Of a DNA stretch of 64,000 bases, positions 15,612 to 38,596 are shown piece by piece. The notes beneath the pieces are model-generated. The model was not told the DNA's origin, ran no database searches, and saw only the letters and a program-made list of their open reading frames with translations. The translations under genes were made by a program, and so were the position numbers. The stretch's first letter is position 1. The number at the start of each line of letters is the position of its first letter. Origin of the DNA: a virus; the IMG/VR virus record IMGVR_UViG_3300043446_003702, positions 84,329 to 148,328 of that record; one strand, 5' to 3'.

Positions 15612-17371
15612 TTCAAATTAAAAATCTTTCTGTTCGAAATTTCATGAGTGTGGGCAATGCCACACAGGGCATTGACTTTGACCGTCAAGACCTTACCTTG
15701 GTCTTGGGTGAGAATCTAGACCTAGGCGGTGATGGATCACGCAACGGCACAGGCAAGACCACAATCATCAACGCCTTGAGTTATGCTCTATATGGGCAAG
15801 CATTGTCAAACATTCGCAAAGACAATCTTGTAAACAAAACCAACAGCAAAGGCATGTTGGTAAGTTTGGATTTCAGTGTCAATGGTAAAAACTACAGAAT
15901 TGAACGTGGACGCAAGCCCAATGTGTTGCGCTTCTATGTGGACAGTGAAGAACAAAGTGCCAGTGATGATGCACAAGGTGACAGCCGAGAAACACAGGAT
16001 GCCATAGAACGTGTCATGGGCATGAGTCATGACATGTTTCAACACGTTGTGGCCTTGAACACCTACACCTTGCCGTTTCTCAGTTTGAAAGCCAATGAAC
16101 AACGCACCATAATTGAACAGTTGCTGGGTATCACACTGCTGAGTGAACGTGCCGATCGTATCAAAGAACTCAACAAGGTTACCAAGGATGCCATCACCAC
16201 AGAAGAATTTAGAATACGTGCTGTGCAAGAAGCCAACCGGCGCATTGAAGAACAGATAGAAAGTCTGCGTAAGCGACAACGACTTTGGACAGCCAAGCGT
16301 GATGAAGATGTTGAAAAACTTGGTCAAGCCATTGCGGACTTAGAACACATTGACATCGACGCCGAAGTGCAGGCGCACAGAGATTTAGAAACGTTCCATG
16401 TCAAACGCAAAGCCATAGATGAAGCCAATCATTGGCTAAGACAGATTGCTGCTGATGATGTCAAACAAAACAAATTGATAGAAAAACTAAAAAAAGAAAT
16501 TGAAGCACTAGACAATCATCAGTGCTATGCCTGTGGACAAGATTTACACGACACCAAGCAAGATGAGATACGTGCCAGCAAGCAGGTCACGCTACAGGAA
16601 ACTGCACTTCAACTATTGGCCAATGACACGCAACGCCAGGAACATCAAAACACATTGAGTGAACTAGGCGAGTTAGGCACAGCCCCCACTGTGTTTTACG
16701 ACAGCCTCGAACAGGCACTGAATCATCGCAACACTGTGGAAACACTGCGCAAGGACTTGACCAGCAGAGCCAATGACACTGATCCCTACGCTGAACAGAT
16801 TGCAGACATGCAAAATCAAGCTCTGCAGTCAGTGGCATATGATGAATTAAACCGTCTCACAAGACTGCAGGACCATCAAGAGTTCTTGCTCAAACTACTC
16901 ACAAGCAAAGATTCGTTTGTACGCAAAAAGATCATTGATCAGAATTTGAGTTACCTCAATGCCAGACTCACACACTATTTGGATCGCATTGGATTGCCAC
17001 ATACTGTGAAGTTCCAAAATGACTTGAGTGTAAGCATTGAAGAACTGGGCCGTGAACTGGACTTTGATAACCTCAGTCGTGGCGAACGCAATCGACTGAT
17101 ACTGAGCATGTCATGGGCATTCCGTGATGTATGGGAAAGTCTGTACAGCCCTATCAATATACTATTCATTGATGAAATGATTGACTCAGGCTTGGACACA
17201 CAGGGTGTGGAAAATGCCTTGGCCTTGCTGAAGAAGATGACTCGTGAACGCAACAAATCAATTTGGCTTGTGAGTCACCGAGACGAACTCACCAGTCGTG
17301 TGGAAAACATACTGAAGGTTGTCAAAGAAAACGGTTTTACCAGTTATAGCACAGATGTTGATATAAAATGA
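15608..17371 (+). CDS. gp46: Recombination ATPase gp46 (Rad50/SbcC-like)
   Basis: Walker A NGTGKTT, coiled coil with a CYAC zinc hook, signature LSRGE and Walker B ILFIDE. Confidence 0.93.
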   Translation: MIQIKNLSVRNFMSVGNATQGIDFDRQDLTLVLGENLDLGGDGSRNGTGKTTIINALSYALYGQALSNIRKDNLVNKTNSKGMLVSLDFSVNGKNYRIERGRKPNVLRFYVDSEEQSASDDAQGDSRETQDAIERVMGMSHDMFQHVVALNTYTLPFLSLKANEQRTIIEQLLGITLLSERADRIKELNKVTKDAITTEEFRIRAVQEANRRIEEQIESLRKRQRLWTAKRDEDVEKLGQAIADLEHIDIDAEVQAHRDLETFHVKRKAIDEANHWLRQIAADDVKQNKLIEKLKKEIEALDNHQCYACGQDLHDTKQDEIRASKQVTLQETALQLLANDTQRQEHQNTLSELGELGTAPTVFYDSLEQALNHRNTVETLRKDLTSRANDTDPYAEQIADMQNQALQSVAYDELNRLTRLQDHQEFLLKLLTSKDSFVRKKIIDQNLSYLNARLTHYLDRIGLPHTVKFQNDLSVSIEELGRELDFDNLSRGERNRLILSMSWAFRDVWESLYSPINILFIDEMIDSGLDTQGVENALALLKKMTRERNKSIWLVSHRDELTSRVENILKVVKENGFTSYSTDVDIK

Positions 17372-17778
17372 ATTGCGTTGAGATTGCCAGTTTGACCAAT
17401 TTGGAATATGTCAAAATCAGCATTAATCAACAGATTGTGCTAGAAACACACAATTGCAAAACATTGAACTGTAAGATAGTTACATTGCCAGCAACAGTCA
17501 ATGTAGAATTTCGACCATTAAAAATTCGACCCATAGTAAGATATAACAATTTTATGTTGAATTATTGGTTGGCTGGCATACAGTTATTTGATCACCAACT
17601 TGAATTTACCATTACAGAAACGTTTTTTCAAGACTACAAGAATAAAAATATACAAGGACGGATTGACTCTCTCACTGAGTCTCAAAAAAAACTAGATCAC
17701 TATTGGGATAAATATGTTGGCATTGACAATTTACACCCAGAAATAGTTCAAAAAATCAAAAGTCTTATCAGCAAATGA
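17368..17778 (+). CDS. Hypothetical protein (first gene of the AT-rich accessory cassette)
   Basis: 136 aa, translationally coupled to gp46 and to the next gene. Confidence 0.6.
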   Translation: MNCVEIASLTNLEYVKISINQQIVLETHNCKTLNCKIVTLPATVNVEFRPLKIRPIVRYNNFMLNYWLAGIQLFDHQLEFTITETFFQDYKNKNIQGRIDSLTESQKKLDHYWDKYVGIDNLHPEIVQKIKSLISK

Positions 17779-19307
17779 AAAATGTTGTATTTGTCGCCTT
17801 GCCCAAAATAGAAATAACATATCCTTCGGGAGCTATTGCTATTTTGTCAAGTGTGGCCAAAGCAAACCATTATGAATCTGTTGTCTATGATTATAATTTA
17901 GATTTACATACATTGTTAACTGCCACAGAGTGGAATGAACTAGAACTGTGGAATACATTTGCGACATCTAGTATTTCTACAGAACTTGAACACAAAATAC
18001 ATCAAATTTTTATAACAAATTTAAAAAAATGTATAAACCCACAGACAGAATACGTTTGTTTTTGTGTGTTCAGCTATTTTAGCAATCAGATTGCTCTTAA
18101 AGTTCTTAATTGGTACAAACACTTCAGCAACATACCTTCAATAGTAGGTGGCGCAGGAATATCAACTGATGCTAGTGCCACTAATAAAGAAATTTTTGGT
18201 AATCTATTGGTGCGTAACCAATTAGCCACTTATGTTGTTTTTGGCGAAGGCGAACTGTCATTTGACAGTATACTAAAAAAACAATTTGACTTTCCAGGAA
18301 TTAATGTGAACAATCCTCAACAGATTGAAGACCTCAGTGTATTACCTATTCCCACCTATGAGTACTTTGATATGGCAAGATATCAAAATCAAAAAATATT
18401 GATCACAGGCAGCCGGGGTTGTGTAAGAAACTGCACCTTTTGTGACATTGAGTTGACTTGGCCAAAATTTAGATATCGAAAAGCTGAACACATAGTTGAG
18501 GAAATAAAACAACATTTTTACGAGTACGGCATTACTGAATTTGAATTTACCGACAGCTTGATCAATGGCAGTATGAGCAATTTCAATCGTTTTAATGAAT
18601 TGTTGTACGAAGCAAAACAAAAAGATCCTGCATTGGAAACAATCAAATATCAAGGACAATTTATCTGTAGACCCAGTGGATCTAACCAAGACAAGTCTTA
18701 TGAACTCATGCACCTTGCAGGCTGTAATATGTTGATCACTGGCATTGAAAGTTTTAGTGAGAATGTTCGCAATCACATGCGTAAAAAATTCAACAACAGC
18801 GATATTGATTACCACTTTGAACAATGCGCACGTTGGGGGATCCCCAACGTGCTTTTGATGATTGTTGGATATCCAACTGAAACTGAACAAGATCACCTAG
18901 ACAATATCAATGCCTTAAAAAAATACAAACCATTTGTGGACATGGGGACAATTTTTATGGTGCGTTGGGGATTGACCATGCATCTTTACGAGCATACTCC
19001 CATCATGAACATGGTTAATGAATTAGGTATTAATTTCAGCAACGATATAAAATTTGACAGCGTTTACAGTTGGACGTCGGACAAAAATCCAACAAACACC
19101 TTGCAAGAACGCATACGTCGAAGATTAGAAATACACGAACTGTGTGTGGAATTGGGTTACCCTATGCCAAGAGTGTTGGAAGAATTACTGGTGTTGGTTA
19201 ATTTGGCGGAAAAAAGTCGGGAACTAAAGAAAAAAACAATTTTTACACTAGAATTAGAGACACCATCTAGTGTGCCTGCTAATTTTAAAACAAACGCATA
19301 TACCTAA
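17775..19307 (+). CDS. Radical SAM protein with an N-terminal B12-binding-like domain (class B-like)
   Basis: SRGCVRNCTFC (CxxxCxxC), IVGGAG, VVFGEGE, FTDSLING, GIESFSE and MIVGYPTET. Confidence 0.85.
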   Translation: MKNVVFVALPKIEITYPSGAIAILSSVAKANHYESVVYDYNLDLHTLLTATEWNELELWNTFATSSISTELEHKIHQIFITNLKKCINPQTEYVCFCVFSYFSNQIALKVLNWYKHFSNIPSIVGGAGISTDASATNKEIFGNLLVRNQLATYVVFGEGELSFDSILKKQFDFPGINVNNPQQIEDLSVLPIPTYEYFDMARYQNQKILITGSRGCVRNCTFCDIELTWPKFRYRKAEHIVEEIKQHFYEYGITEFEFTDSLINGSMSNFNRFNELLYEAKQKDPALETIKYQGQFICRPSGSNQDKSYELMHLAGCNMLITGIESFSENVRNHMRKKFNNSDIDYHFEQCARWGIPNVLLMIVGYPTETEQDHLDNINALKKYKPFVDMGTIFMVRWGLTMHLYEHTPIMNMVNELGINFSNDIKFDSVYSWTSDKNPTNTLQERIRRRLEIHELCVELGYPMPRVLEELLVLVNLAEKSRELKKKTIFTLELETPSSVPANFKTNAYT

Positions 19308-20792
19308 ATGGACGCAGTTATTGTCAATATTCCTAGAATGGCTCCTAGTAGGCCCAGTGCGGGCACTGCCTTGATCAAAAGTTTGTTGAATAATATCAAT
19401 GTATCAAATAAATTACTGGATATAAACATTGATTTCTTTAATTGTTTTGCTGAGCAATACGGCGCAGAACAGTTTCAAGAACTTGATAGATACTTGTACA
19501 ACGACGACATTGTGTTGTCTGCTGCCACAAATCAAAGTTATCAAAATTTTTTGGAGTATTGGATCAAAAACATTGTTGAGCTAGACCCCAAATGGATTTT
19601 GATTAGTATTTTTACATGGCAATGTCAAAACTTTGCTCGAGACTTTATTAGTAAACTGAGAACATATACCACTGCCAAGATTGTGATAGGCGGGCAAGGC
19701 ATGATCAAAAGTGAGAACACCAGCTTCAATGAAAATCCTTATTTTGCCAAAGAACTTTTGACCGCTGGTGTAATAGATTATTACATACAAGGTGAAGCAG
19801 AAAAAGCGTTGCCCGAATTGTTACGTGGTAATGATACTTTCCCTGGCATCAACTCAGATATATTTGCCGAACGCAGTGAAATGAGTACAGTCCCTGCATA
19901 CGATTTTTCTGACCATGATATTACTGCATACCACAGTGGCTATTCAGATGGACAATTGCCACTAGAAAGCAGCCGTGGTTGCGTAAGATCTTGTTCGTTC
20001 TGTGATTGGCCTGTGTATGCCGGGGGCTTCCGCAGCAAGCCTGGAGATCAGTTGTTTGAAGAATGTATAGGCTATTATTACCAACATGGCACAACCAACT
20101 ATTATTTCAACGACAGTTTGATCAATGGCAATTTGACAGACTTTAGACAATTCAATCATAGATTAGTTGAGTATTACAAACAAAACAACTTGCCAGATCG
20201 CACAATCAAATACAGTGGCTGTTACATTGTTCGCAAGCCCAATCAATGGCGCGAGGAAGATTGGGAGTTGATTGGTCGTGCAGGGGCGGATATATTGTTA
20301 ATTGGGGTGGAAACAGGATCAGACCGTGTGCGTAAAGAAATGAAAAAAGGTTTCAACGCTGATGATTTAGACTTTACTGTGCAGATGGCCAGTCGTTACA
20401 AAGTAAAATTGTATTTTTTAATGATTGTGGGCTGGCCTAGTGAAACTAGAGAAGAGTTTGATGAAACCTTGGATTTATTGCGAAGATATCAACGCTATGT
20501 TGCTGACGGAACATTAATGGGCATAAACTTTGGTACTAGTCTTACCATAGGCGAAGGCACACCTATCTATAAAAATCCGGAAAAATTCAATGTTGTGGGA
20601 GTAAATGGTAAACGGCCCAACGATGTGTTTTGGATGCATCAACACAACCCTGCCCTCACGTACAAAGAACGTGTGCTACGCAGAATTGAGGCACAGGAAC
20701 TGGCCATCAGCTTGGGCTACACATTCTGGAAAGGTGATGATCAGTTGAACTTTATTCGCAACAAATACGAAAGAATCTTGAATGAAAATTGA
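19308..20792 (+). CDS. Radical SAM protein with a B12-binding-like domain, paralog of the upstream gene
   Basis: SRGCVRSCSFC, IVIGGQG, IQGEAE, FNDSLING, GVETGSD and MIVGWPSET. Confidence 0.85.
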   Translation: MDAVIVNIPRMAPSRPSAGTALIKSLLNNINVSNKLLDINIDFFNCFAEQYGAEQFQELDRYLYNDDIVLSAATNQSYQNFLEYWIKNIVELDPKWILISIFTWQCQNFARDFISKLRTYTTAKIVIGGQGMIKSENTSFNENPYFAKELLTAGVIDYYIQGEAEKALPELLRGNDTFPGINSDIFAERSEMSTVPAYDFSDHDITAYHSGYSDGQLPLESSRGCVRSCSFCDWPVYAGGFRSKPGDQLFEECIGYYYQHGTTNYYFNDSLINGNLTDFRQFNHRLVEYYKQNNLPDRTIKYSGCYIVRKPNQWREEDWELIGRAGADILLIGVETGSDRVRKEMKKGFNADDLDFTVQMASRYKVKLYFLMIVGWPSETREEFDETLDLLRRYQRYVADGTLMGINFGTSLTIGEGTPIYKNPEKFNVVGVNGKRPNDVFWMHQHNPALTYKERVLRRIEAQELAISLGYTFWKGDDQLNFIRNKYERILNEN

Positions 20793-21339
20793 AATTTTGT
20801 TGCAGTGCGAAACACGACTGGGTGCACCAATGATACGTTGTACCATAGACGAAGGTGCGCCATTTTTTGACGGTCCAGCACAGGAACACATCTCAGCCAC
20901 ACTAGGTGTAGCACCAGGATTTCATGAACTGGTGATTAGTCATTATAACAAACAAGATCATGATCATGTGTTGGACAATAATGGGTGCATCATCATAGAC
21001 AAGCATGTTGAAATCCTAGCTATTAGTATAGACAACCTTGAGTTCAGCATGGATGAACTAAGGCAAGCACATTTTTATCCTGTGTACCAATCTGTTTATT
21101 ATCAACAGCAGTTGGACCAAGGCCATAAGTTGCCTCCCAGTATTTCTCCAAATTTGTACTTGGGACACAATGGTATTTGGAAGTTGAACTTTCACACACC
21201 GTTTGTGGAATATATTATACAAAAACGTAAAAATTTGGCCATGAACTTGGACAACACTATTTTTCAAAGTGATACTGAGTTGTTACGCCAAACCAAAGAC
21301 TGGATACAGGCACAACCGGACATTGTATGGAACATATAG
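20782..21339 (+). CDS. Hypothetical protein, paralog of 22342-22827
   Basis: Shared motifs: HYNK..D...DKHVEILAISID..LYLGHNGIWKLNF here versus HYGK...DRSCELDSIEVD..LFFGKNGTWRIAF. Confidence 0.65.
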   Translation: MKIEILLQCETRLGAPMIRCTIDEGAPFFDGPAQEHISATLGVAPGFHELVISHYNKQDHDHVLDNNGCIIIDKHVEILAISIDNLEFSMDELRQAHFYPVYQSVYYQQQLDQGHKLPPSISPNLYLGHNGIWKLNFHTPFVEYIIQKRKNLAMNLDNTIFQSDTELLRQTKDWIQAQPDIVWNI

Positions 21340-22364
21340 GCAGACAGTTTGCCATGGCCATGGCCTTAGCACAAAATCCCCATGCTGATTTTTGGGCAGT
21401 GAGATCTGCCATCAACGGATATTACATTGGCAGCAGGGTGGATCAGGATCCTGTTGTAGAAACATTGTTGAATACAACTATTCGCATAGAAGATGTGGTT
21501 CGTGCTGCCAACAGCAATGATCAACTTATACAATTAGAGCAGCGGTTTGCCAGCTGGATATTGAGTCACCAAACCAATACTATCACAGGACTGGAACAAT
21601 ACGAACCTGACTACAGTGAAGGCAGTACACAGGCCTTTGACAGTTTTTACTTTAGACACAGACACCGACGCTTTCGTTGCTTTGTAGGCGAATACTTTTA
21701 TCACCCAAAAACTTGGATTAGCACCGGTGCTGATTGGAGTTTTATCACTGACAGAGATCCGCTTGGTTCTGGAGATGCACTGGTATTAAGTGTGCCATTT
21801 TGTGACACAGTTGGCGTAGTTGATAATTACGCTCAACTCATGCAGTGGTGCCAAGCAATGAATATTCCAGTGCTGTTGGACTTGTGCTATTGGCCTATTA
21901 GTCATGACTTACATGTTGATTTGTGTTACAATTGCATAGACACTGTGGCGTTTAGTCTCAGCAAAGCCTGGCCTGTGGGCACTGCCCGAATAGGCATGCG
22001 ATACACCCGATCAGACACATTTGATGGACAGAAACTGCATCACAGCATGGGATATAACAACAATGTAGGTGCCATGATAGGCAACGTATTGTTAGATAAT
22101 TTTGCTCCAGACTGGATTTATACCACTCGCCAAAGTAAATACAAAACTGTATGTAAAGTACTGAACTTACAGCCTACCCATAGTGTGAACTTTGGCATTG
22201 GTGACTCTTCTTGGGATCGCTACAATCGTAGAGAATTGTTAAAATCTTATCAATTAGACTTTGATCCCAATTTGTTCGTAAATCGTATTTGTGTGAACCG
22301 AGTGTATCAACACTGGGATTTGTTTAGGACTTTTTGTCGCCATGAACTTGACATTGAAATTTAA
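21327..22364 (+). CDS. PLP-dependent fold-type-I enzyme (aminotransferase/decarboxylase-like)
   Basis: GSTQAF, VLLDLCY (PLP Asp) and FSLSKAWP..RIG (Schiff-base Lys). Confidence 0.7.
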   Translation: MEHIGRQFAMAMALAQNPHADFWAVRSAINGYYIGSRVDQDPVVETLLNTTIRIEDVVRAANSNDQLIQLEQRFASWILSHQTNTITGLEQYEPDYSEGSTQAFDSFYFRHRHRRFRCFVGEYFYHPKTWISTGADWSFITDRDPLGSGDALVLSVPFCDTVGVVDNYAQLMQWCQAMNIPVLLDLCYWPISHDLHVDLCYNCIDTVAFSLSKAWPVGTARIGMRYTRSDTFDGQKLHHSMGYNNNVGAMIGNVLLDNFAPDWIYTTRQSKYKTVCKVLNLQPTHSVNFGIGDSSWDRYNRRELLKSYQLDFDPNLFVNRICVNRVYQHWDLFRTFCRHELDIEI

Positions 22365-22827
22365 AAATATACAACCCTGCAACGGTCTACCCATGATTCA
22401 CATTGTGATCAACGATGCCTTGGTATTTGAAAACTCTGTGCGTCCGGAGATCAACATACAATGCCATCCTGTAGACAACAAGATCAACTTGAGCATCCAG
22501 CACTACGGCAAAGACCCTACAACAGATACCGTGGTTGAGAATGGTGTGATTGTGCAAGACCGCAGTTGTGAACTTGATAGCATTGAAGTAGACGGCTATG
22601 ACCTACAAGAGTTGAAATGGTTGAGTACATATCACTGTGATGATGGCGCAGTTTTAGACAAGTGTCTGTTCTTTGGTAAAAATGGTACATGGCGGATTGC
22701 ATTTGAATTGCCAGTATTGCAGTGGATACTGCGAACCAGGCACAACATCAATGGCAATGATCCCAACTGGTCTGAAGATTATGAAAGTTATGTGAGAGCA
22801 TGCAGACTGCTGAACAAATCAATCTAA
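22342..22827 (+). CDS. Hypothetical protein, paralog of 20782-21339
   Basis: Shares the paralog motifs above; coupled to its neighbours. Confidence 0.6.
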   Translation: MNLTLKFKNIQPCNGLPMIHIVINDALVFENSVRPEINIQCHPVDNKINLSIQHYGKDPTTDTVVENGVIVQDRSCELDSIEVDGYDLQELKWLSTYHCDDGAVLDKCLFFGKNGTWRIAFELPVLQWILRTRHNINGNDPNWSEDYESYVRACRLLNKSI

Positions 22828-23861
22828 TACAACAAATCAGTTGGGCACTGGCCAAGGCCAGTGCCGAAGACTGCTTGGACACGCCTGGCGAGTTTGTGTG
22901 GGCCTATCCACAGAACTCGCAATTCTGGGAAGTACGAGCACGTAGCCATAGCATATTCAGTAGTGGCAATGCTATCAAAGACCAAATCGTTATCGATTTT
23001 GTCAACCATTTGAGTTTGAGTGAGCACCTTAGAGACTGCTGGATTGTCAACAAGTTTCAAGAAGCATTTCCTGCATGGATTGCTGCTGGCACTCGATACC
23101 GATTACATAACTTGGATCAGTTCCGGTATGTGGGCTTTTCACAAGGCACACAGGAATCATTTCTTAACTGGTACATGATGCACAAGGACCAGCGACTGCG
23201 AGTGTTTCGTGGCGACTACTGGTGGCACATGGAGATCTGGCAAAAGGCCGGGTTCAACTGGCGGTACATCGACGATGATTTTGATATCAAACCTGGCGAT
23301 GCTTGTATATGCAGTCTGCCGTTTGCACTCACAGGTCAAGAACATGAACGCTTCAAGTGGTTGGTAGAACAGTGTGACCGCCAAGGTGTGGACCTGTTGG
23401 TGGACTTTATCTACTTGCCCAACAGCAACAATGTTGTGGACATTGACTTGAGTGCAGACTGTATCAAAGAAATAACATTCAGTCTCAGCAAAACATTTCC
23501 TGTGCAAACAGCCAAGATTGCTGTGCGCATGCTAAAACACAAACCCAGCGATCCCATGCAGATGAGCAACGATGAAAACATTTGCAACCGTTTGAGTAGC
23601 GGATTAGCATTGAGTCTAATACAGCAGTTCCCTGTGGACTACATGGTGAACAAATATCTAGATCAACAGACATATTGGTGTGAACGCTTGGGATTACGAC
23701 CCACCGGCGTTGTACATTTTGGACTGGGTGAAAACTATACTGCCACAGGCAGACAGCAAGAATTGAACTATCTAAGCAAATATAACGAGCAACAAAATCG
23801 CTATAATCTGGGCATGCTCTTTGAAAATCAAAATTTCCTGAAAAAACTTCAATTATACTAA
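22800..23861 (+). CDS. PLP-dependent fold-type-I enzyme, paralog of 21327-22364
   Basis: GTQESF, LLVDFIY and FSLSKTFP motifs. Confidence 0.7.
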   Translation: MQTAEQINLIQQISWALAKASAEDCLDTPGEFVWAYPQNSQFWEVRARSHSIFSSGNAIKDQIVIDFVNHLSLSEHLRDCWIVNKFQEAFPAWIAAGTRYRLHNLDQFRYVGFSQGTQESFLNWYMMHKDQRLRVFRGDYWWHMEIWQKAGFNWRYIDDDFDIKPGDACICSLPFALTGQEHERFKWLVEQCDRQGVDLLVDFIYLPNSNNVVDIDLSADCIKEITFSLSKTFPVQTAKIAVRMLKHKPSDPMQMSNDENICNRLSSGLALSLIQQFPVDYMVNKYLDQQTYWCERLGLRPTGVVHFGLGENYTATGRQQELNYLSKYNEQQNRYNLGMLFENQNFLKKLQLY

Positions 23862-23905
23862 AGGCAACATAACTACAGCACGAAAGGCAGATCCCGCTCA
23901 AGCAC

Positions 23906-24334
23906 ATGACATGGTTATATCAAGACACCCCAGTTGAGACTTTACCTGAAGAATGTGTGGGTTTTGTTTATCAAATCACAAATAATCTATCTGGACGCAA
24001 GTACATAGGCAAAAAATTAGCAAAATTCAGTAAGACAACGTACAAGACAGTAAAACAAAAGAACGGCACAAAAAAGCGGAAGAAGATACGAACCAAAGTC
24101 GATTCAGACTGGCGTGAGTACTACGGGTCAAGCCCAGAATTAACCGCAGACGTAATCAAACTAGGCATCGAAAACTTCACCAGAGAGATACTCTTCTATT
24201 GCAAATCAAAGTCTGAATGTAGTTACATTGAGGCACGAGAACAGTTTGCACGTCGAGTATTGGAATCAGCAGATTATTACAACGGCCATATACAAGTACG
24301 TGTACATGGCTCACATATCAAAGACAAAATTTAA
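23906..24334 (+). CDS. Short GIY-YIG endonuclease
   Basis: GFVYQITN..GRKYIGKK...YYGSS...E..EQF...YYN; a catalytic domain with no long DNA-binding tail. Confidence 0.85.
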   Translation: MTWLYQDTPVETLPEECVGFVYQITNNLSGRKYIGKKLAKFSKTTYKTVKQKNGTKKRKKIRTKVDSDWREYYGSSPELTADVIKLGIENFTREILFYCKSKSECSYIEAREQFARRVLESADYYNGHIQVRVHGSHIKDKI

Positions 24335-24344
24335 CAGGCAGTAA

Positions 24345-24771
24345 CGACTCGCACAGGTCAACAACGTGTGCCCTGGACCTGGATCTTGGATCGCAGGGAT
24401 GGAAGACTCACCGCGCCAGTGAGCACTCAGCAACTATCCTTGACAGGACGACGATCGCAAATTGCCGCGGTTTTGCTGTTTGAAAAGAATTCCCAGGCTA
24501 AAAAGACGCTGCCGCGGGGCAGCAGGTCAGTGCAATGTGTTAGCGTATGTTGTATTGATTGCCGTTGTAGTAAAGACGCAACTCGAGGTACAGGACAACC
24601 GCCTCTGTAATTGTTGTAACGCTAGGTGCTATCAGAACTCAGATGAAGCAGCCTTTGCCCTGTGCGGGCAAAGTGTGACTATAGAATCTAGATGAAACTG
24701 TTTCGCTTCGCTCGAAAGAAAACAATGAGTTGATGAGCATAGCGAAATCAACAGATCTACGAAGTAGATCT
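24345..24771 (+). ncRNA. Candidate large structured non-coding RNA/cis element (unknown family)
   Basis: The ~430-nt gap between convergent genes holds more than 10 stems, a 15-bp helix with 7 G-U pairs (24525-24539/24546-24560) and pseudoknot potential (24541-24546 with 24619-24624). Confidence 0.6.
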
Positions 24772-25113
24772 TTAATCGTTGAGATTAGTATCTGGCCAAT
24801 CTCTAAACAGTGCATGTTGAATGTTTCCTGAAACAAACTGATTGAAACTCTTGTGTTTGGTTTCAAGATCGCCTTTGAGTGGGGCAACTCGTTTGAATGC
24901 GCTGTCCATTTGAGCCATGTCTTTAAACTCCATGATGATCATCCATTCAGGCATGTCAGCTATGCTACGAAATCCCATTTTGCAACGAGTGATCCTGTAG
25001 GTTTCCATGCGTCCTTCTTCAACAAGATGATCAAAGAAACTTTTCATACCGTTGACCCAATCTAGGTCTGATATGTCTCCCTCTTTGTCTGCCCATATTG
25101 TGTATAAATCCAT
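24772..25113 (-). CDS. Hypothetical protein, dimeric alpha-beta barrel-like (DUF6614-like)
   Basis: 113 aa with the pattern YRITRCKMGF...PEWMIIMEFKDMAQMDSAF; last gene of the minus-strand operon. Confidence 0.55.
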   Translation of the reverse strand: MDLYTIWADKEGDISDLDWVNGMKSFFDHLVEEGRMETYRITRCKMGFRSIADMPEWMIIMEFKDMAQMDSAFKRVAPLKGDLETKHKSFNQFVSGNIQHALFRDWPDTNLND

Positions 25114-25115
25114 GT

Positions 25116-25556
25116 TTACTCCATTGGTCCTAGTATTTCAAATCCGTCTATTTCTTTTTTGTATTCGTGTGCTTGTTCAAGGTACAGGTACCTAAAGCCA
25201 CGTGCTCGATAGATAGCACATTCTACCTTCATGGTTTCTATGCCCAGTCTCATGCGTGGATTATGATAGGTCCATGCAAACTGATCGCACAAGGCATTGT
25301 GTTCATCATAACGTTTAATCAGTGAAAAAGCCACCAACCGTCCATGGTCATAGTAACCTATGATGTCGGTCATGGCATCAGTGTATCGCGAATCAAATAT
25401 AGGCATTACACTGGTGAATTTTCTGTACTGACAGTACTGTCGATATATGCTATTCAACTCTGCAATGTTGGGGGTGGTCATGTACATCCATTCCACGGTC
25501 GTGGCTGAGTAGTTGGTTTTGGCAAGATCAATCCTGGCAAACTGATATGAACTCAT
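25116..25556 (-). CDS. Aminoacyl-tRNA:protein transferase (ATE1/Bpt) C-terminal-like GNAT protein
   Basis: IYRQYC..RK...GYYDHGRLVAFSLI...YHNPRMRLGIETMKVECAIYRARGFRYLYL resembles the ATE_C domain. Confidence 0.55.
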   Translation of the reverse strand: MSSYQFARIDLAKTNYSATTVEWMYMTTPNIAELNSIYRQYCQYRKFTSVMPIFDSRYTDAMTDIIGYYDHGRLVAFSLIKRYDEHNALCDQFAWTYHNPRMRLGIETMKVECAIYRARGFRYLYLEQAHEYKKEIDGFEILGPME

Positions 25557-26053
25557 CTGGGATCCTGTCTGTGATGAAAAAGGTCAGTGAGATACTGTTC
25601 AGGCCAGTCCTTGTAAAACCCCTTGGCAGCCAGTTGCTCAGCAGCGGCATTGAGTTTGCTCAAACTCTGTACAAATATTATAGCATACTGACCTTGATTC
25701 ATGATTACACCGTTGACATCCTCCACTGCGTTGGGATGATCTTCCAGGGCCAACATATCCTTGGCACACAACAGCTCTTGATTGGCAGACTCTATGGCCG
25801 AGTGAAAACGTTCATAAGGCCATTCTGCAGGGTCGTACACATAGGCAATCACATCCCAGTGATACATGCCCCATCGCGATCTCAGTCGGAGATCAAACCA
25901 AGGATCTGATCCCAACAATACCTGTACACGATTGCTGAGTCTGGCTTGTCTGGCATAGGGACAGGGAGGCCATGCTCCCAGAGCAGGATGTGGTTGTTCT
26001 ACAAAGCGTTCGCTCCAGGCCAATATGTCAGCAGTGACAGTTTCAATATTCAT
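25553..26053 (-). CDS. Hypothetical protein (DUF1415-like, CPYA motif)
   Basis: WSERFVE..HPALG..PPCPYARQA; coupled within the operon. Confidence 0.5.
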   Translation of the reverse strand: MNIETVTADILAWSERFVEQPHPALGAWPPCPYARQARLSNRVQVLLGSDPWFDLRLRSRWGMYHWDVIAYVYDPAEWPYERFHSAIESANQELLCAKDMLALEDHPNAVEDVNGVIMNQGQYAIIFVQSLSKLNAAAEQLAAKGFYKDWPEQYLTDLFHHRQDPR

Positions 26054-31384: not shown

Positions 31385-31392
31385 ATAACAAC

Positions 31393-31614
31393 ATGTTGTT
31401 AACTGAATTTTTTCGCAAAGACCCAGAAGCATTTCAAAACTTGTCGCAAGACAACAGTCAGCCACAAGAGAGTGATCTGCGCAAAACTCGTCTCACACTG
31501 CGTCAACTCAACAAGTTGAGAAAAATGAATGACGTAAGAATGTATGAGTTCAAAGAGAAACTCAAACTGGTGCGCAAACAATATGCACCACCTCCTGCCG
31601 CCCCGGCAATGTAA
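31393..31614 (+). CDS. Small head-cluster hypothetical protein
   Basis: 73 aa, basic, with TATAAATA (31380-31387) 5 nt upstream. Confidence 0.65.
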   Translation: MLLTEFFRKDPEAFQNLSQDNSQPQESDLRKTRLTLRQLNKLRKMNDVRMYEFKEKLKLVRKQYAPPPAAPAM

Positions 31615-31712
31615 TAAATTTTTTACATTTATTGGCCTTTTGGCCCCTTAAACCACGTCTTTTTCTCCTTGTGTGTAAATAACAGCACACTTTACCTATA
31701 GGAGTTTCCCAT

Positions 31713-37622: not shown

Positions 37623-37682
37623 GGACATATTTACAGTATACACTCAGTAGTTAAAGATTTCAACCTCTTCATAAATATTTGT

Positions 37683-37738
37683 GACGCAATTCGGCGTCTT
37701 ATGCAGTGCTAACCCTCTGCGTAGCGGCTAGAACCCGC
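37683..37738 (+). promoter_or_regulatory. Three-hairpin structured 5' leader after late promoter CATAAATA (37670-37677)
   Basis: Stems GACGC/GCGTC, TATGCAG/CTGCGTA and GCGG/CCGC lie back to back before an AAGGAG SD. Confidence 0.5.
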
Positions 37739-37765
37739 ATTGGGCTTCTTTAAGGAGAAATCAAA

Positions 37766-38596
37766 ATGGGAAGAGCTCTCAAAATTGCAAAATACGGCAC
37801 CGCTCAAGGTGTAACATATCCAACGTCAACTTCAGTTAACCAACCTGCAGCCGCAGTCAATGTTGATGTTGGTTATCCCAACTTTGGATCTTTAACTGAT
37901 CCAGTATACAACGCACCTGTACAAACTCTTGATGCTGCACAATATCTTGGTGTTGTTGGTGGCAGTCCTGCCAGCAGTGTTGCAACTGCTACCAATCCGC
38001 AGATTGCCGCAGTAGTGAACATTGCATTGCAAGACGGTACCAGCACCACTGCTGGCGCCGGTCGCATCATCCGTCAAAAAGGTGCACACAAATTCTTGGT
38101 GGCTTACACAGCCAGCACCACAGCTGACGGTAGTTTTATTGTGGGACAAGCATATCAAATTGCTGTAGTGGGCACCACTGACTGGGCTGCTGCTGGCGCC
38201 AAAGGGAGTCCAGTGGCCGCTGGTGACATTTTTACTGCAACCAGCGTGGGCGGAGCAGGCACAGGTGAAGCATACCCAGTGGACATCTGTGTGTTGAGCA
38301 ACACTGCAACACCAGCTGCTGGTTACATGAGTATTGCTTACAGCACTGGTGACAGTTCAGCTGTTTACGCCAGCTACATCACCAACAAGTGGGTGCGTGA
38401 CTGGAATGGCATGACCTATGGTAACTATGCTGATACCAACTATGGTACTAACACTCAAAGCAGTGAAAACTACTATGCTGCCAACTTCTTCACAGACGAA
38501 GGCACAGTTACATGGAGTGGTGCAGAAATTGTCAACAGTGCTTATGCACAAAACGGCACAGTGCAATTGGCTCAAATTGCCAGCGTTACTTCTTAA
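37766..38596 (+). CDS. Virion structural protein (decoration-like)
   Basis: Ala/Thr/Gly-rich with an IIRQKGAHKFLV motif, strong SD and a late promoter. Confidence 0.6.
   Translation: MGRALKIAKYGTAQGVTYPTSTSVNQPAAAVNVDVGYPNFGSLTDPVYNAPVQTLDAAQYLGVVGGSPASSVATATNPQIAAVVNIALQDGTSTTAGAGRIIRQKGAHKFLVAYTASTTADGSFIVGQAYQIAVVGTTDWAAAGAKGSPVAAGDIFTATSVGGAGTGEAYPVDICVLSNTATPAAGYMSIAYSTGDSSAVYASYITNKWVRDWNGMTYGNYADTNYGTNTQSSENYYAANFFTDEGTVTWSGAEIVNSAYAQNGTVQLAQIASVTS

What the first reader, a model, noticed from the sequence alone, without database searches (positions are those of the whole stretch)
24335..24700. Large, ornate structured non-coding RNA candidate directly downstream of a stand-alone GIY-YIG nuclease
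Seen: this is the only long non-coding gap in an otherwise tightly packed window, and it is almost fully base-paired. Stems include GCACA/TGTGC (24351/24367), CCCTG/CAGGG (24371/24394), CTCAC/GTGAG (24407/24419), a multibranch CAGCAA/TTGCTG (24428/24473) enclosing two hairpins, GCTGCC/GGCAGC (24508/24518), GAGGT/GCCTC (24585/24601) and CTTTGCCC/GGGCAAAG (24653/24666). An uninterrupted 15-bp helix (24525-24539/24546-24560) has 7 G-U pairs, so it forms only as plus-strand RNA. Its loop TAGCGT is complementary to ACGCTA at 24619-24624, suggesting a pseudoknot. Near-direct repeats AGAACTCAGATGAA (24634) and AGAATCTAGATGAA (24683) flank the last hairpin. I recognise no tRNA, tmRNA, RNase P or group I/II intron core. 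Inference: a novel phage ncRNA co-transcribed with the GIY-YIG gene. The nuclease lacks a long DNA-binding tail, so a ribonucleoprotein (nuclease plus RNA partner or guide, by analogy with IscB/omega-RNA) is one hypothesis; an RNA-primed origin is another.
Basis: partly seen in the sequence, partly recalled or inferred. Interest (0 to 1): 0.85.

Follow-up and report, generated by a model that had tools for sequence, protein, structure and literature searches.

The report
Extended Polynucleobacter-1 twin-box phage RNA
The gene-free stretch behind a small nuclease gene of this uncultured freshwater T4-like phage encodes a real, knotted non-coding RNA of about 430 bases; its first third is the Polynucleobacter-1 motif catalogued in 2010 with no known function, and nothing found here shows that it serves the nuclease.

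Summary
Bases 24335-24771 are the longest ORF-free gap in the window, and they encode a plus-strand structured RNA.

- **Structure:** On 74 distinct relatives, 84 proposed base pairs are 91.8% paired, against 37-41% in shifted controls. 62 pairs carry compensatory changes.
- **Novelty:** It is not a new RNA. Bases 24346-24481 match Rfam RF01718 (Polynucleobacter-1) at 114.8 bits; the family cut-off is 37. The 2010 paper already placed the motif downstream of a conserved phage-like gene.
- **Uncatalogued parts:**
  - the 3' two thirds: a double-pseudoknot core and three tail hairpins;
  - two 7-letter boxes that are identical to each other in 69 of 71 loci although the word itself varies;
  - two sibling RNA classes with other 5' domains and no Rfam match.
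- **Nuclease link:** The linkage is tight but does not look functional.
  - 72 of 73 close nuclease loci carry the RNA.
  - Nearly identical nucleases sit beside all three RNA classes.
  - No nuclease residue tracks the boxes.
  - Six cultured phages with distant homologues have no such RNA.
  - Two RNA-bearing contigs have no nuclease.

The function remains unknown. My best guess is a free-standing RNA whose twin boxes are read twice by an unidentified partner. This scan reached the same reading earlier on four other genomes.

The parts
23906..24334 (+). GIY-YIG nuclease gene (142 aa, catalytic domain only), the upstream neighbour of the RNA
   Evidence: Pfam PF19835 SegE_GIY-YIG, E 6e-33. 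AlphaFold model pLDDT 83.5 with residues 127-142 disordered. Best solved fold is the I-TevI catalytic domain, probability 0.99. More than 8000 near-length relatives against 8 longer ones.
24346..24481 (+). 5' domain, the Polynucleobacter-1 RNA motif (RF01718): helices P1 24351-24371, P2 24379-24396, P3 24407-24423, P4 24428-24433/24473-24478, P5 24437-24448, P6 24453-24472
   Evidence: cmscan 114.8 bits against a cut-off of 37, E 4e-26, full model 1-141. Helices 2-8 are 78-99% paired, with compensatory changes in every helix except P5 (helix 6).
24346..24359 (+). Small 5' pseudoknot: 24346-24348 pairs with 24357-24359 in the loop of P1
   Evidence: Helix 1: 2 of 3 pairs change on both sides, 91.5% paired.
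24508..24523 (+). P7 hairpin, preceded by a conserved A-rich linker (24479-24507)
   Evidence: Helix 9: 5 of 6 pairs covary. The loops are mostly of GNRA type on the plus strand.
24525..24560 (+). P8, a long helix with 7 G-U pairs in this copy; its loop forms pseudoknot PK1
   Evidence: Helix 10: 13 of 14 pairs covary, 88.5% paired.
24541..24624 (+). Pseudoknot PK1: the P8 loop 24541-24546 pairs with 24619-24624
   Evidence: Helix 11: 6 of 6 pairs change on both sides, 96.1% paired.
24564..24599 (+). Pseudoknot PK2: 24564-24568 pairs with 24595-24599 inside the loop of P10
   Evidence: Helix 12: 3 of 5 pairs covary, 99.7% paired. The same pairing is kept with other letters in class B.
24578..24617 (+). 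P11 (24578-24582/24613-24617) enclosing P10 (24585-24605), whose loop holds the near-invariant 17-nt core at 24587-24603
   Evidence: Helices 13 and 14 (5 of 5 and 2 of 5 pairs covary). The core is invariant or nearly so in 74 sequences and is shared with class B.
24637..24647 (+). Box 1 of the twin boxes (variable 7-letter word at 24641-24647)
   Evidence: Its variable letters match those of box 2.
24653..24673 (+). P12 hairpin between the boxes
   Evidence: Helix 15, 93.1% paired. The stem has other letters in classes B and C.
24686..24696 (+). Box 2 of the twin boxes (same 7-letter word at 24690-24696)
   Evidence: Normalised mutual information with box 1 is 0.84-0.92. No other column of the RNA exceeds 0.5.
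24702..24771 (+). Tail: mini-hairpin 24702-24714, a hairpin 24729-24752 with a conserved 12-nt loop, and a terminal 8-bp hairpin 24753-24771 that probably marks the 3' end
   Evidence: The tail is present behind all three RNA classes, and the stems covary between loci. No U-run follows: on average 2.55 T in the next 8 nt.
24772..25113 (-). Convergent DUF6614 gene that bounds the RNA (context, not part of it)
   Evidence: Pfam PF20319, E 2e-22. It is the commonest gene family next after the RNA in the 22 loci compared.

Best explanation
**What it is (shown; my confidence is about 0.97).** It is a plus-strand non-coding RNA of roughly 360-430 nt. It is the full-length form of the Polynucleobacter-1 RNA of uncultured freshwater giant T4-like phages. 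It has four parts:
1. a 5' domain (RF01718);
2. a conserved core tied by two pseudoknots around a near-invariant 17-nt loop;
3. a platform in which two copies of one 7-letter word flank a hairpin;
4. three small tail hairpins.

It sits at a fixed place in these genomes. That place is the end of a plus-strand gene block, behind a small GIY-YIG nuclease gene and facing convergent genes.

**How it probably works (inferred; about 0.4).** It is made as the 3' continuation of the nuclease transcript and ends at the terminal hairpin. It then acts as a free-standing folded RNA rather than as a partner of that nuclease. The knotted core is a rigid scaffold. The twin boxes are read twice by one partner: a dimeric or two-site protein, or a nucleic acid used twice. 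That partner's specificity differs between closely related phages. The exchangeable 5' domain (three unrelated forms in the same slot) is the part under diversifying pressure. This would fit a decoy or sponge-like role in the phage-host contest.
For: - **Family membership.** Rfam match at 114.8 bits.
- **Structure.** Covariation supports all helices and three pseudoknots.
- **Non-coding.** The window's frame is open in 0 of 73 relatives.
- **Strand.** G-U pairs fix the plus strand.
- **Modular build.** Classes A, B and C share the box platform and the tail. A and B also share the core, while the 5' domains differ. Classes B and C have no Rfam match even at E <= 1.
- **Fixed slot.** The position is syntenic, and the classes alternate in it.
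- **Twin boxes.**
  - They are identical in 69 of 71 loci, across at least 9 different words.
  - Their variable letters correlate only with each other.
- **Independence from the nuclease.**
  - Close nucleases pair with all three classes.
  - There is no residue-box association.
  - ORFs are inserted between gene and RNA in about 10 of 71 loci.
  - The RNA occurs without the nuclease on a 92.6-kb contig and a 16-kb contig.
  - Six cultured phages with distant homologues have no such RNA.
- **Expression (weak).** Relatives of the stretch occur in contigs of four metatranscriptome runs.
Against: - No transcript ends, strand or abundance could be measured. Only assembled contigs were available, and DNA carry-over cannot be excluded.
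- No reader of the boxes was found. None of nine neighbouring protein families within 6 kb tracks the box word. There is no complementary sequence nearby.
- The terminal hairpin lacks a U-run, so the 3' end is inferred, not shown.
- The linkage to the nuclease is very tight: 72 of 73 loci counting L039. A purely positional explanation is not obviously sufficient for that.
- The decoy or sponge role is a guess drawn from the exchangeable 5' domain. Nothing tested here supports it directly.
Confidence: 0.42

Rival explanations
1. Nuclease-RNA ribonucleoprotein. The RNA binds the GIY-YIG protein through the shared 3' module. It supplies the target recognition or activation that the missing DNA-binding domain would otherwise give.
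For: - The nuclease is a catalytic domain only, with a basic beta-hairpin insert and a disordered tail.
- The RNA follows it in the same orientation in 72 of 73 close loci.
- A GIY-YIG gene lies upstream in nearly all viral RNA loci that have enough upstream sequence.
- The box platform and the tail are common to all RNA classes, so one protein could bind all of them.
Against: - More than 450 cultured-phage homologues are equally short. The six examined have gaps of 0-150 nt and no such RNA.
- No nuclease residue tracks the box word; the best normalised MI is 0.2-0.34, against 0.84-0.92 between the boxes.
- There is no hypervariable unpaired guide segment.
- Unrelated ORFs are inserted between gene and RNA.
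- The RNA occurs on contigs without the nuclease.
- To my knowledge, no GIY-YIG enzyme is known to be RNA-guided.
Confidence: 0.12
2. Parasitic neighbour. The nuclease is a Seg-like selfish endonuclease that became fixed beside a conserved RNA gene. Homing endonucleases favour conserved targets (T4 SegB in the tRNA cluster is the example I recall). On this reading the association says nothing about how the RNA works.
For: - The domain is of SegE type and the fold is I-TevI-like.
- A rare longer relative carries a NUMOD3 DNA-binding motif.
- In cultured phages the homologue sits in varied contexts, sometimes as a lone gene on its strand or beside another homing endonuclease.
- Accessory-gene hot spots flank the module.
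Against: - Within this clade the gene is not sporadic. It is present and intact at the same place in essentially all loci.
- It is strongly conserved, with 83% mean column identity.
- It lacks any DNA-binding domain needed for site recognition.
Confidence: 0.12
3. Cis-acting 3' untranslated region. The folded RNA protects or regulates the nuclease messenger. It would act as an exonuclease block, a terminator or a translational feedback element, and would have no life of its own.
For: - Same strand, immediately after the stop codon, with no sigma-70-type promoter consensus in 23700-24900.
- It ends in conserved hairpins at a convergent gene junction.
Against: - About 430 nt with three pseudoknots and near-invariant unpaired nucleotides is far more than a stabiliser needs.
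- The RNA is kept when other ORFs separate it from the nuclease, and on contigs without the nuclease.
- Homologous nuclease genes elsewhere do without it.
Confidence: 0.12
4. Unrecognised ribozyme. The conserved knotted core is a catalytic centre, for example for self-processing out of the long transcript.
For: - The core has a double pseudoknot around a near-invariant 17-nt loop.
- Many invariant unpaired nucleotides are shared by classes A and B.
- A conserved short motif lies at the 5' boundary just after the stop codon in all classes.
Against: - No Rfam ribozyme family matches, even at E <= 10.
- Class C lacks the core but keeps the boxes and the tail.
- No cleavage site can be inferred from the contigs.
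Confidence: 0.1
5. DNA-level element: an RNA-primed replication origin or a recombination site, with the boxes acting as direct DNA repeats.
For: - Direct repeats flank a perfect hairpin.
- One natural variant (L204) lacks box 1 and the hairpin, as if it had recombined between the repeat units.
Against: - Covariation uses G-U pairs and is strand-specific, as expected for RNA.
- The site is a convergence point, with no skew extremum.
- Positions next to the boxes differ consistently between the two copies, so the identity is not due to gene conversion.
- There is no reverse transcriptase in three near-complete genomes.
Confidence: 0.03

Closest known systems
Polynucleobacter-1 RNA motif (Rfam RF01718; Weinberg et al. 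2010, Genome Biol 11:R31, PMC2864571)
   Same: Bases 24346-24481 match the whole 141-position model at 114.8 bits. They come from fresh water and lie downstream of a conserved phage-like gene, as the paper's supplement says. The flanks printed in the paper's own alignment file already show the 3' extension and the two boxes.
   Different: - The catalogued model covers only the first third.
- Not in Rfam: the double-pseudoknot core, the twin boxes and the tail.
- Sibling classes B and C keep the box platform and the tail (B also the core) but lack the catalogued motif.
- The paper found no example in a purified phage. Here the RNA lies on viral contigs that include near-complete genomes of about 345 kb. 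It is still absent from 50,697 deposited phage records.
OMEGA systems (IscB/omega-RNA, TnpB/reRNA) and HEARO RNA
   Same: A large structured RNA is encoded next to, and in the same orientation as, a small nuclease gene. Earlier orphan RNA motifs of this kind turned out to be nuclease guides (my recollection, not tested here).
   Different: - The nuclease is GIY-YIG, not RuvC/HNH.
- There is no transposon context; the locus is fixed and syntenic.
- There is no variable guide segment.
- There is no match to the Rfam families of those RNAs.
- The nuclease family mostly lacks the RNA.
Free-standing GIY-YIG homing endonucleases of T4-like phages (Seg proteins, I-TevI)
   Same: The catalytic domain family and the fold.
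   Different: There is no DNA-binding domain. The gene is not sporadic within its clade. T4 endonuclease II, also a short GIY-YIG enzyme as I recall, may be the better functional analogy for the protein. I did not test that.
Other large orphan structured RNAs of phages (GOLLD, ROOL)
   Same: Several hundred nucleotides, multiple pseudoknots, phage-borne, function unknown (from my own knowledge).
   Different: There is no sequence or model match. This RNA is not next to tRNA genes; the window has none. The twin-box feature has no counterpart that I know of.

Membership tests
Polynucleobacter-1 RNA (RF01718) | Covariance-model score at or above the curated cut-off (37 bits) over the full model | tested here: met
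   114.8 bits, model positions 1-141, E 4e-26.
Polynucleobacter-1 RNA (RF01718) | Consensus helices kept by compensatory changes | tested here: met
   Helices 2-8 are 78-99% paired, with compensatory changes in every helix except the 3-pair P5 (helix 6).
Polynucleobacter-1 RNA (RF01718) | Lies downstream of the conserved gene family named in the 2010 paper (GOS11034, possibly related to a P-SSM2 gene) | tested here: inconclusive
   The RNA follows the GIY-YIG gene, and that gene has homologues in 455 deposited phage records, 405 of them cyanophages (Synechococcus, Cyanophage and Prochlorococcus entries). I could not check that GOS11034 is this family.
RNA-guided nuclease systems (OMEGA-like) | A variable, unpaired guide segment attached to a conserved scaffold | tested here: not met
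   The alignment of 74 sequences shows no hypervariable unpaired stretch of 15-20 nt. The variable parts are helices that covary or short linkers.
RNA-guided nuclease systems (OMEGA-like) | Nuclease and RNA co-occur throughout the nuclease family | tested here: not met
   They co-occur within the close clade. They do not in the six cultured phages with 40-50% identical homologues. Two RNA-bearing contigs have no nuclease.
RNA-guided nuclease systems (OMEGA-like) | The protein binds the RNA and needs it for cleavage | not testable with these tools
   This needs biochemistry.
Free-standing homing endonuclease (Seg/I-TevI type) | GIY-YIG catalytic domain | tested here: met
   PF19835, E 6e-33. 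I-TevI catalytic domain is the best fold match. The motif residues are invariant in 22 sequences.
Free-standing homing endonuclease (Seg/I-TevI type) | C-terminal DNA-binding domain | tested here: not met
   142 aa, with residues 127-142 disordered. Only 8 longer relatives against more than 8000 of near length.
Free-standing homing endonuclease (Seg/I-TevI type) | Sporadic presence among close relatives | tested here: not met
   The gene is in the same syntenic slot in all 22 loci compared.
Group I intron carrying a GIY-YIG gene | Intron core and flanking exons of one gene | tested here: not met
   No Rfam intron match at E <= 10. The upstream gene ends at 23861 and the downstream gene is on the other strand.
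tRNA / tmRNA | Recognised by ARAGORN or Rfam | tested here: not met
   No gene found in the window.
Type III toxin-antitoxin (ToxIN-like) | Tandem repeat RNA upstream of an endoribonuclease toxin | tested here: not met
   The RNA is downstream, there are only two 11-nt boxes, and the protein is a GIY-YIG domain.

The most novel reading that the evidence does not exclude
The twin boxes are two read-outs of one 7-letter code by a partner that changes its specificity between sister phages. The RNA would then be the hub of a new phage ribonucleoprotein. The partner could be the neighbouring catalytic-domain-only GIY-YIG nuclease acting as a dimer, or an unknown host or phage factor. Alternatively, the knotted core is a new ribozyme class. 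Either way, the abundant Polynucleobacter-1 orphan would become the first member of a new functional class of phage RNAs, with three interchangeable heads.
Probability: 0.15. Interest if true: 0.85.

Novelty: new member of a known kind. Interest (0 to 1): 0.45.

Why it matters
Polynucleobacter-1 has been an orphan motif since 2010.

- **A phage home.** This locus puts it on viral contigs of giant T4-like freshwater phages. Its neighbouring gene has thousands of close relatives in metagenomes.
- **A bigger RNA.** The catalogued model is only the head of an RNA three times larger.
- **A redrawn family.** Its true family signature may be the 3' module, which two uncatalogued sibling classes also carry.
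- **A testable rule.** Two boxes that must spell the same word give a sharp handle for finding the partner.

None of this is a new kind of system yet. The attractive nuclease-guide reading is not supported.

Tried and rejected
1. **Deposited phages.** A distant DNA search with the 437-nt stretch gave no match in 50,697 records.
2. **Bacterial genomes.** A pattern scan with the 17-nt core returned mostly chance hits in GC-rich genomes. Only three were real (L112, L145, L164, all contigs from metagenome bins).
3. **RNA expression.** Only assembled contigs of four metatranscriptome runs could be laid.
   - Relatives of both the nuclease gene and the RNA are present.
   - One contig of depth 185 covers parts of the RNA, against 5-30 for the nuclease contigs.
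   - One contig ends at 24338.
   - Contigs cannot show level, strand or ends, so I do not count this as evidence.
4. **Reader of the twin boxes.**
   - Nuclease residues: no association.
   - Eight other protein families within 6 kb: none, and the highest values came from columns with 8-16 states.
   - A complementary sequence within 6 kb: own-word matches 89 against 514 for other words, as expected by chance.
   - Any other RNA column: none.
   - Genome-wide enrichment of the word in the window: none.
5. **Retro-element model** (direct repeats used for template switching). No reverse transcriptase in the window's contig or in three genomes that are 95-100% complete.
6. **Pairing of box 1 with box 2.** I tried several antiparallel registers by hand. 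None explains why the letters must be identical rather than complementary. In class C the central four letters form a palindrome, which is suggestive but not general.
7. **Reading the boxes as an AUR codon plus A, or as a URA stop.** Noted only. No frame is conserved.
8. **Small ORFs in the gap.** Rejected.
9. **Sequence search of the nuclease against solved structures.** Nothing significant.
10. **Pfam scan of the ORFs inserted between nuclease and RNA.** No families.
12. **Origin idea.** No skew signal and no promoter consensus.
13. **Literature.** Only the 2010 paper names the motif.

Full report
**Setting**

The window is part of a 148-kb viral contig that is estimated to be 43% complete. 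It carries T4-type portal and baseplate-hub genes. Relatives reach 331-347 kb when near complete. DNA runs that hold the stretch are mostly freshwater, drinking-water, aquaculture and estuary metagenomes.

The stretch 24335-24771 lies between two stop codons. Upstream is a 142-aa GIY-YIG gene (23906-24334, +). Downstream is a convergent DUF6614 gene (24772-25113, -).

**Is the RNA real?**

The fold energy of the single sequence is unremarkable: z = -1.36 on the plus strand and -2.30 on the minus strand. The decisive evidence is comparative.

I fetched 80 viral loci through the nuclease protein and 119 through a 17-nt core of the RNA. I then aligned 74 distinct full-length relatives with the window sequence as the first row (A1).

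| Measure | Proposed structure | Partners slid by 1-3 columns |
|---|---|---|
| Cells paired | 91.8% | 36.7-41.0% |
| Covariation score | 0.398 | 0.05-0.08 |

- The structure has 84 pairs in 15 helices.
- 62 pairs have changes on both sides.
- None of 500 shuffles reaches any of the measures.
- A second pseudoknot joins 24564-24568 to 24595-24599, inside the loop of the 24585-24605 hairpin.
- A small third one joins 24346-24348 to the loop of the first hairpin.
- Conserved G-U pairs fix the plus strand.
- The window's 77-codon frame is open in none of the 73 other sequences.

**What is known about it**

Rfam places 24346-24481 in RF01718, Polynucleobacter-1 RNA. The score is 114.8 bits against a cut-off of 37, over the whole model.

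The only paper in the library that names the motif is its 2010 description. Its supplement makes three relevant points:
- Most examples lie downstream of genes of one family, possibly related to a cyanophage P-SSM2 gene.
- The 3' half is not always detected.
- No purified phage carried it.

The flanks in the paper's alignment file already show sequence that parallels 24482-24700, including both boxes. So the 5' third is a known orphan, and the rest is visible in the old data but was never modelled. Rfam has nothing for 24482-24771 beyond chance-level hits.

**A larger family**

Clustering the 520 nt behind the nuclease gene gave three main groups.

| Class | Sequences | Rfam RF01718 | 17-nt core and pseudoknots | Box-hairpin-box platform and tail |
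|---|---|---|---|---|
| A | 30, including the window | all match | yes | yes |
| B | 30 | none match | yes | yes |
| C | 10 | none match | no | yes |

- Class B shares the near-invariant 17-nt core, both pseudoknot pairings, the box platform and the tail, but has another 5' domain. Its own consensus fold has 76 pairs, 32 of them with compensatory changes.
- Class C shares only the platform and the tail.
- Neither B nor C matches any Rfam family, even at E <= 1.
- All three classes occupy the same syntenic slot. The order of genes there is:
  1. a 587-aa gene;
  2. a variable accessory cassette;
  3. the nuclease gene;
  4. the RNA;
  5. optional variable genes on the other strand;
  6. DUF6614 and two further conserved genes;
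  7. the baseplate hub.

**The twin boxes**

The boxes are 24637-24647 and 24686-24696. They differ consistently in letters 2-4. They carry the same 7-letter word at 24641-24647 and 24690-24696.

- Across 172 distinct loci, eight words occur; a ninth is in L064.
- Both copies agree in 69 of 71 nuclease-anchored loci.
- In 134 distinct sequences, the three commonest variable positions agree in 126 of 129, 124 of 126 and 125 of 127 cases where both copies have a letter.
- The four combinations of the first two variable letters are about equally common among close relatives. So the word changes often, and always in both copies.
- These positions correlate with nothing else in the RNA.
- They do not track any residue of the nuclease, or of eight other neighbouring protein families.
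- No complementary sequence lies within 6 kb.
- Gene conversion is unlikely, because the letters next to the word stay different between the copies.
- A retro-element model fails for lack of a reverse transcriptase.

The rule is real, and I cannot explain it. The simplest reading is one partner that reads the word twice.

**The nuclease and its link to the RNA**

The protein is a SegE-type GIY-YIG catalytic domain with a basic beta-hairpin insert and a disordered C-terminus.
- Its best solved fold match is the I-TevI catalytic domain.
- It has more than 8000 near-length relatives and only eight longer ones.

The linkage is tight within the clade:
- 71 of 73 loci with room carry the boxes. One of the two exceptions, L039, has the core 1.2 kb downstream.
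- Nearly all viral RNA loci with enough upstream sequence have the gene.

Six observations argue against a working partnership:
- Nucleases 93-96% identical to the window's sit beside classes A, B and C.
- Nothing in the protein follows the boxes.
- About 10 of 71 loci have one or two unrelated ORFs between gene and RNA.
- Two RNA-bearing contigs, one of 92.6 kb, hold no homologue.
- 455 deposited phage records hold homologues of 37-50% identity, often annotated 'NAD synthetase'.
- In the six I opened, that gene is followed by 0-150 nt and ordinary small genes.

Lacking a DNA-binding tail is therefore the normal state of this protein family. It is not a sign that an RNA replaces the tail.

**Ends and expression**

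- No sigma-70-type promoter consensus lies in 23700-24900. Read-through from the nuclease gene is the simplest source of the RNA.
- A short conserved motif follows the stop codon in all classes.
- The tail ends in an 8-bp hairpin whose stem covaries between loci. No U-run follows it.
- Contigs from RNA libraries contain relatives of the stretch. They cannot show level, strand or ends.

**Verdict**

- The RNA is real and ornate, but its head is a known orphan motif.
- The origin idea has no support.

The new elements are the full architecture, the three pseudoknots, the twin-box rule and the two sibling classes.

Earlier follow-ups of this scan on four other genomes reached the same reading. 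I re-derived it independently here, and I do not count those reports as evidence.

Noticed in passing
window 37682-37768 (+): A second catalogued orphan RNA: Rfam RF02980 (freshwater-2), 68.6 bits against a cut-off of 49.9. It ends at the start of the ORF 37766-38596.
   Followed up: no
L007:4430-4815 (+); L004:4430-4900 (+): Two further large structured RNA classes (B and C) sit in the same slot behind the nuclease gene. Neither has an Rfam match even at E <= 1. Class B has 32 compensatory pairs.
   Followed up: partly
L005:4440-5453, L039:4450-5457, L048:4438-5427, L040:4436-5152 (+); L018:4426-4692 (+): ORFs of 238-337 aa, and an 88-aa ORF in class C loci, are inserted between the nuclease gene and the RNA. 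None has a Pfam family.
   Followed up: partly
window 24505-24525 (-): Read on the minus strand, hairpin P7 is followed by a run of T and scores as an intrinsic-terminator-like site. Convergent transcription might therefore end inside the RNA gene. On the plus strand the same hairpin has GNRA-type loops and covaries.
   Followed up: no
L204:8265-8706 (+): A natural variant that lacks box 1 and the hairpin between the boxes, as if deleted between the two repeat units. It could also be an assembly artefact.
   Followed up: no
window 17368-23861 and 24772-26053; loci: The genes just upstream of the nuclease and just downstream of the RNA differ from phage to phage. Different cassettes, including radical-SAM-like genes, sit between conserved anchors. 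The module therefore sits between two accessory-gene hot spots.
   Followed up: partly
window 23906-24334; deposited phage records: Homologues of this GIY-YIG protein are annotated 'NAD synthetase' in many deposited phage genomes and in PHROG 447. Pfam and the fold say nuclease, so the name looks like a propagated error.
   Followed up: partly
window 31385-31712: The second-longest ORF-free gap of the window (about 328 nt), right after the portal gene. I did not examine it.
   Followed up: no
L211:10307-10843 (-): A divergent class-B-like RNA with no nuclease on a 92.6-kb contig. It follows a 98-aa ORF that looked MazG-like to me by eye, and a threefold short direct repeat precedes the RNA.
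   Followed up: partly
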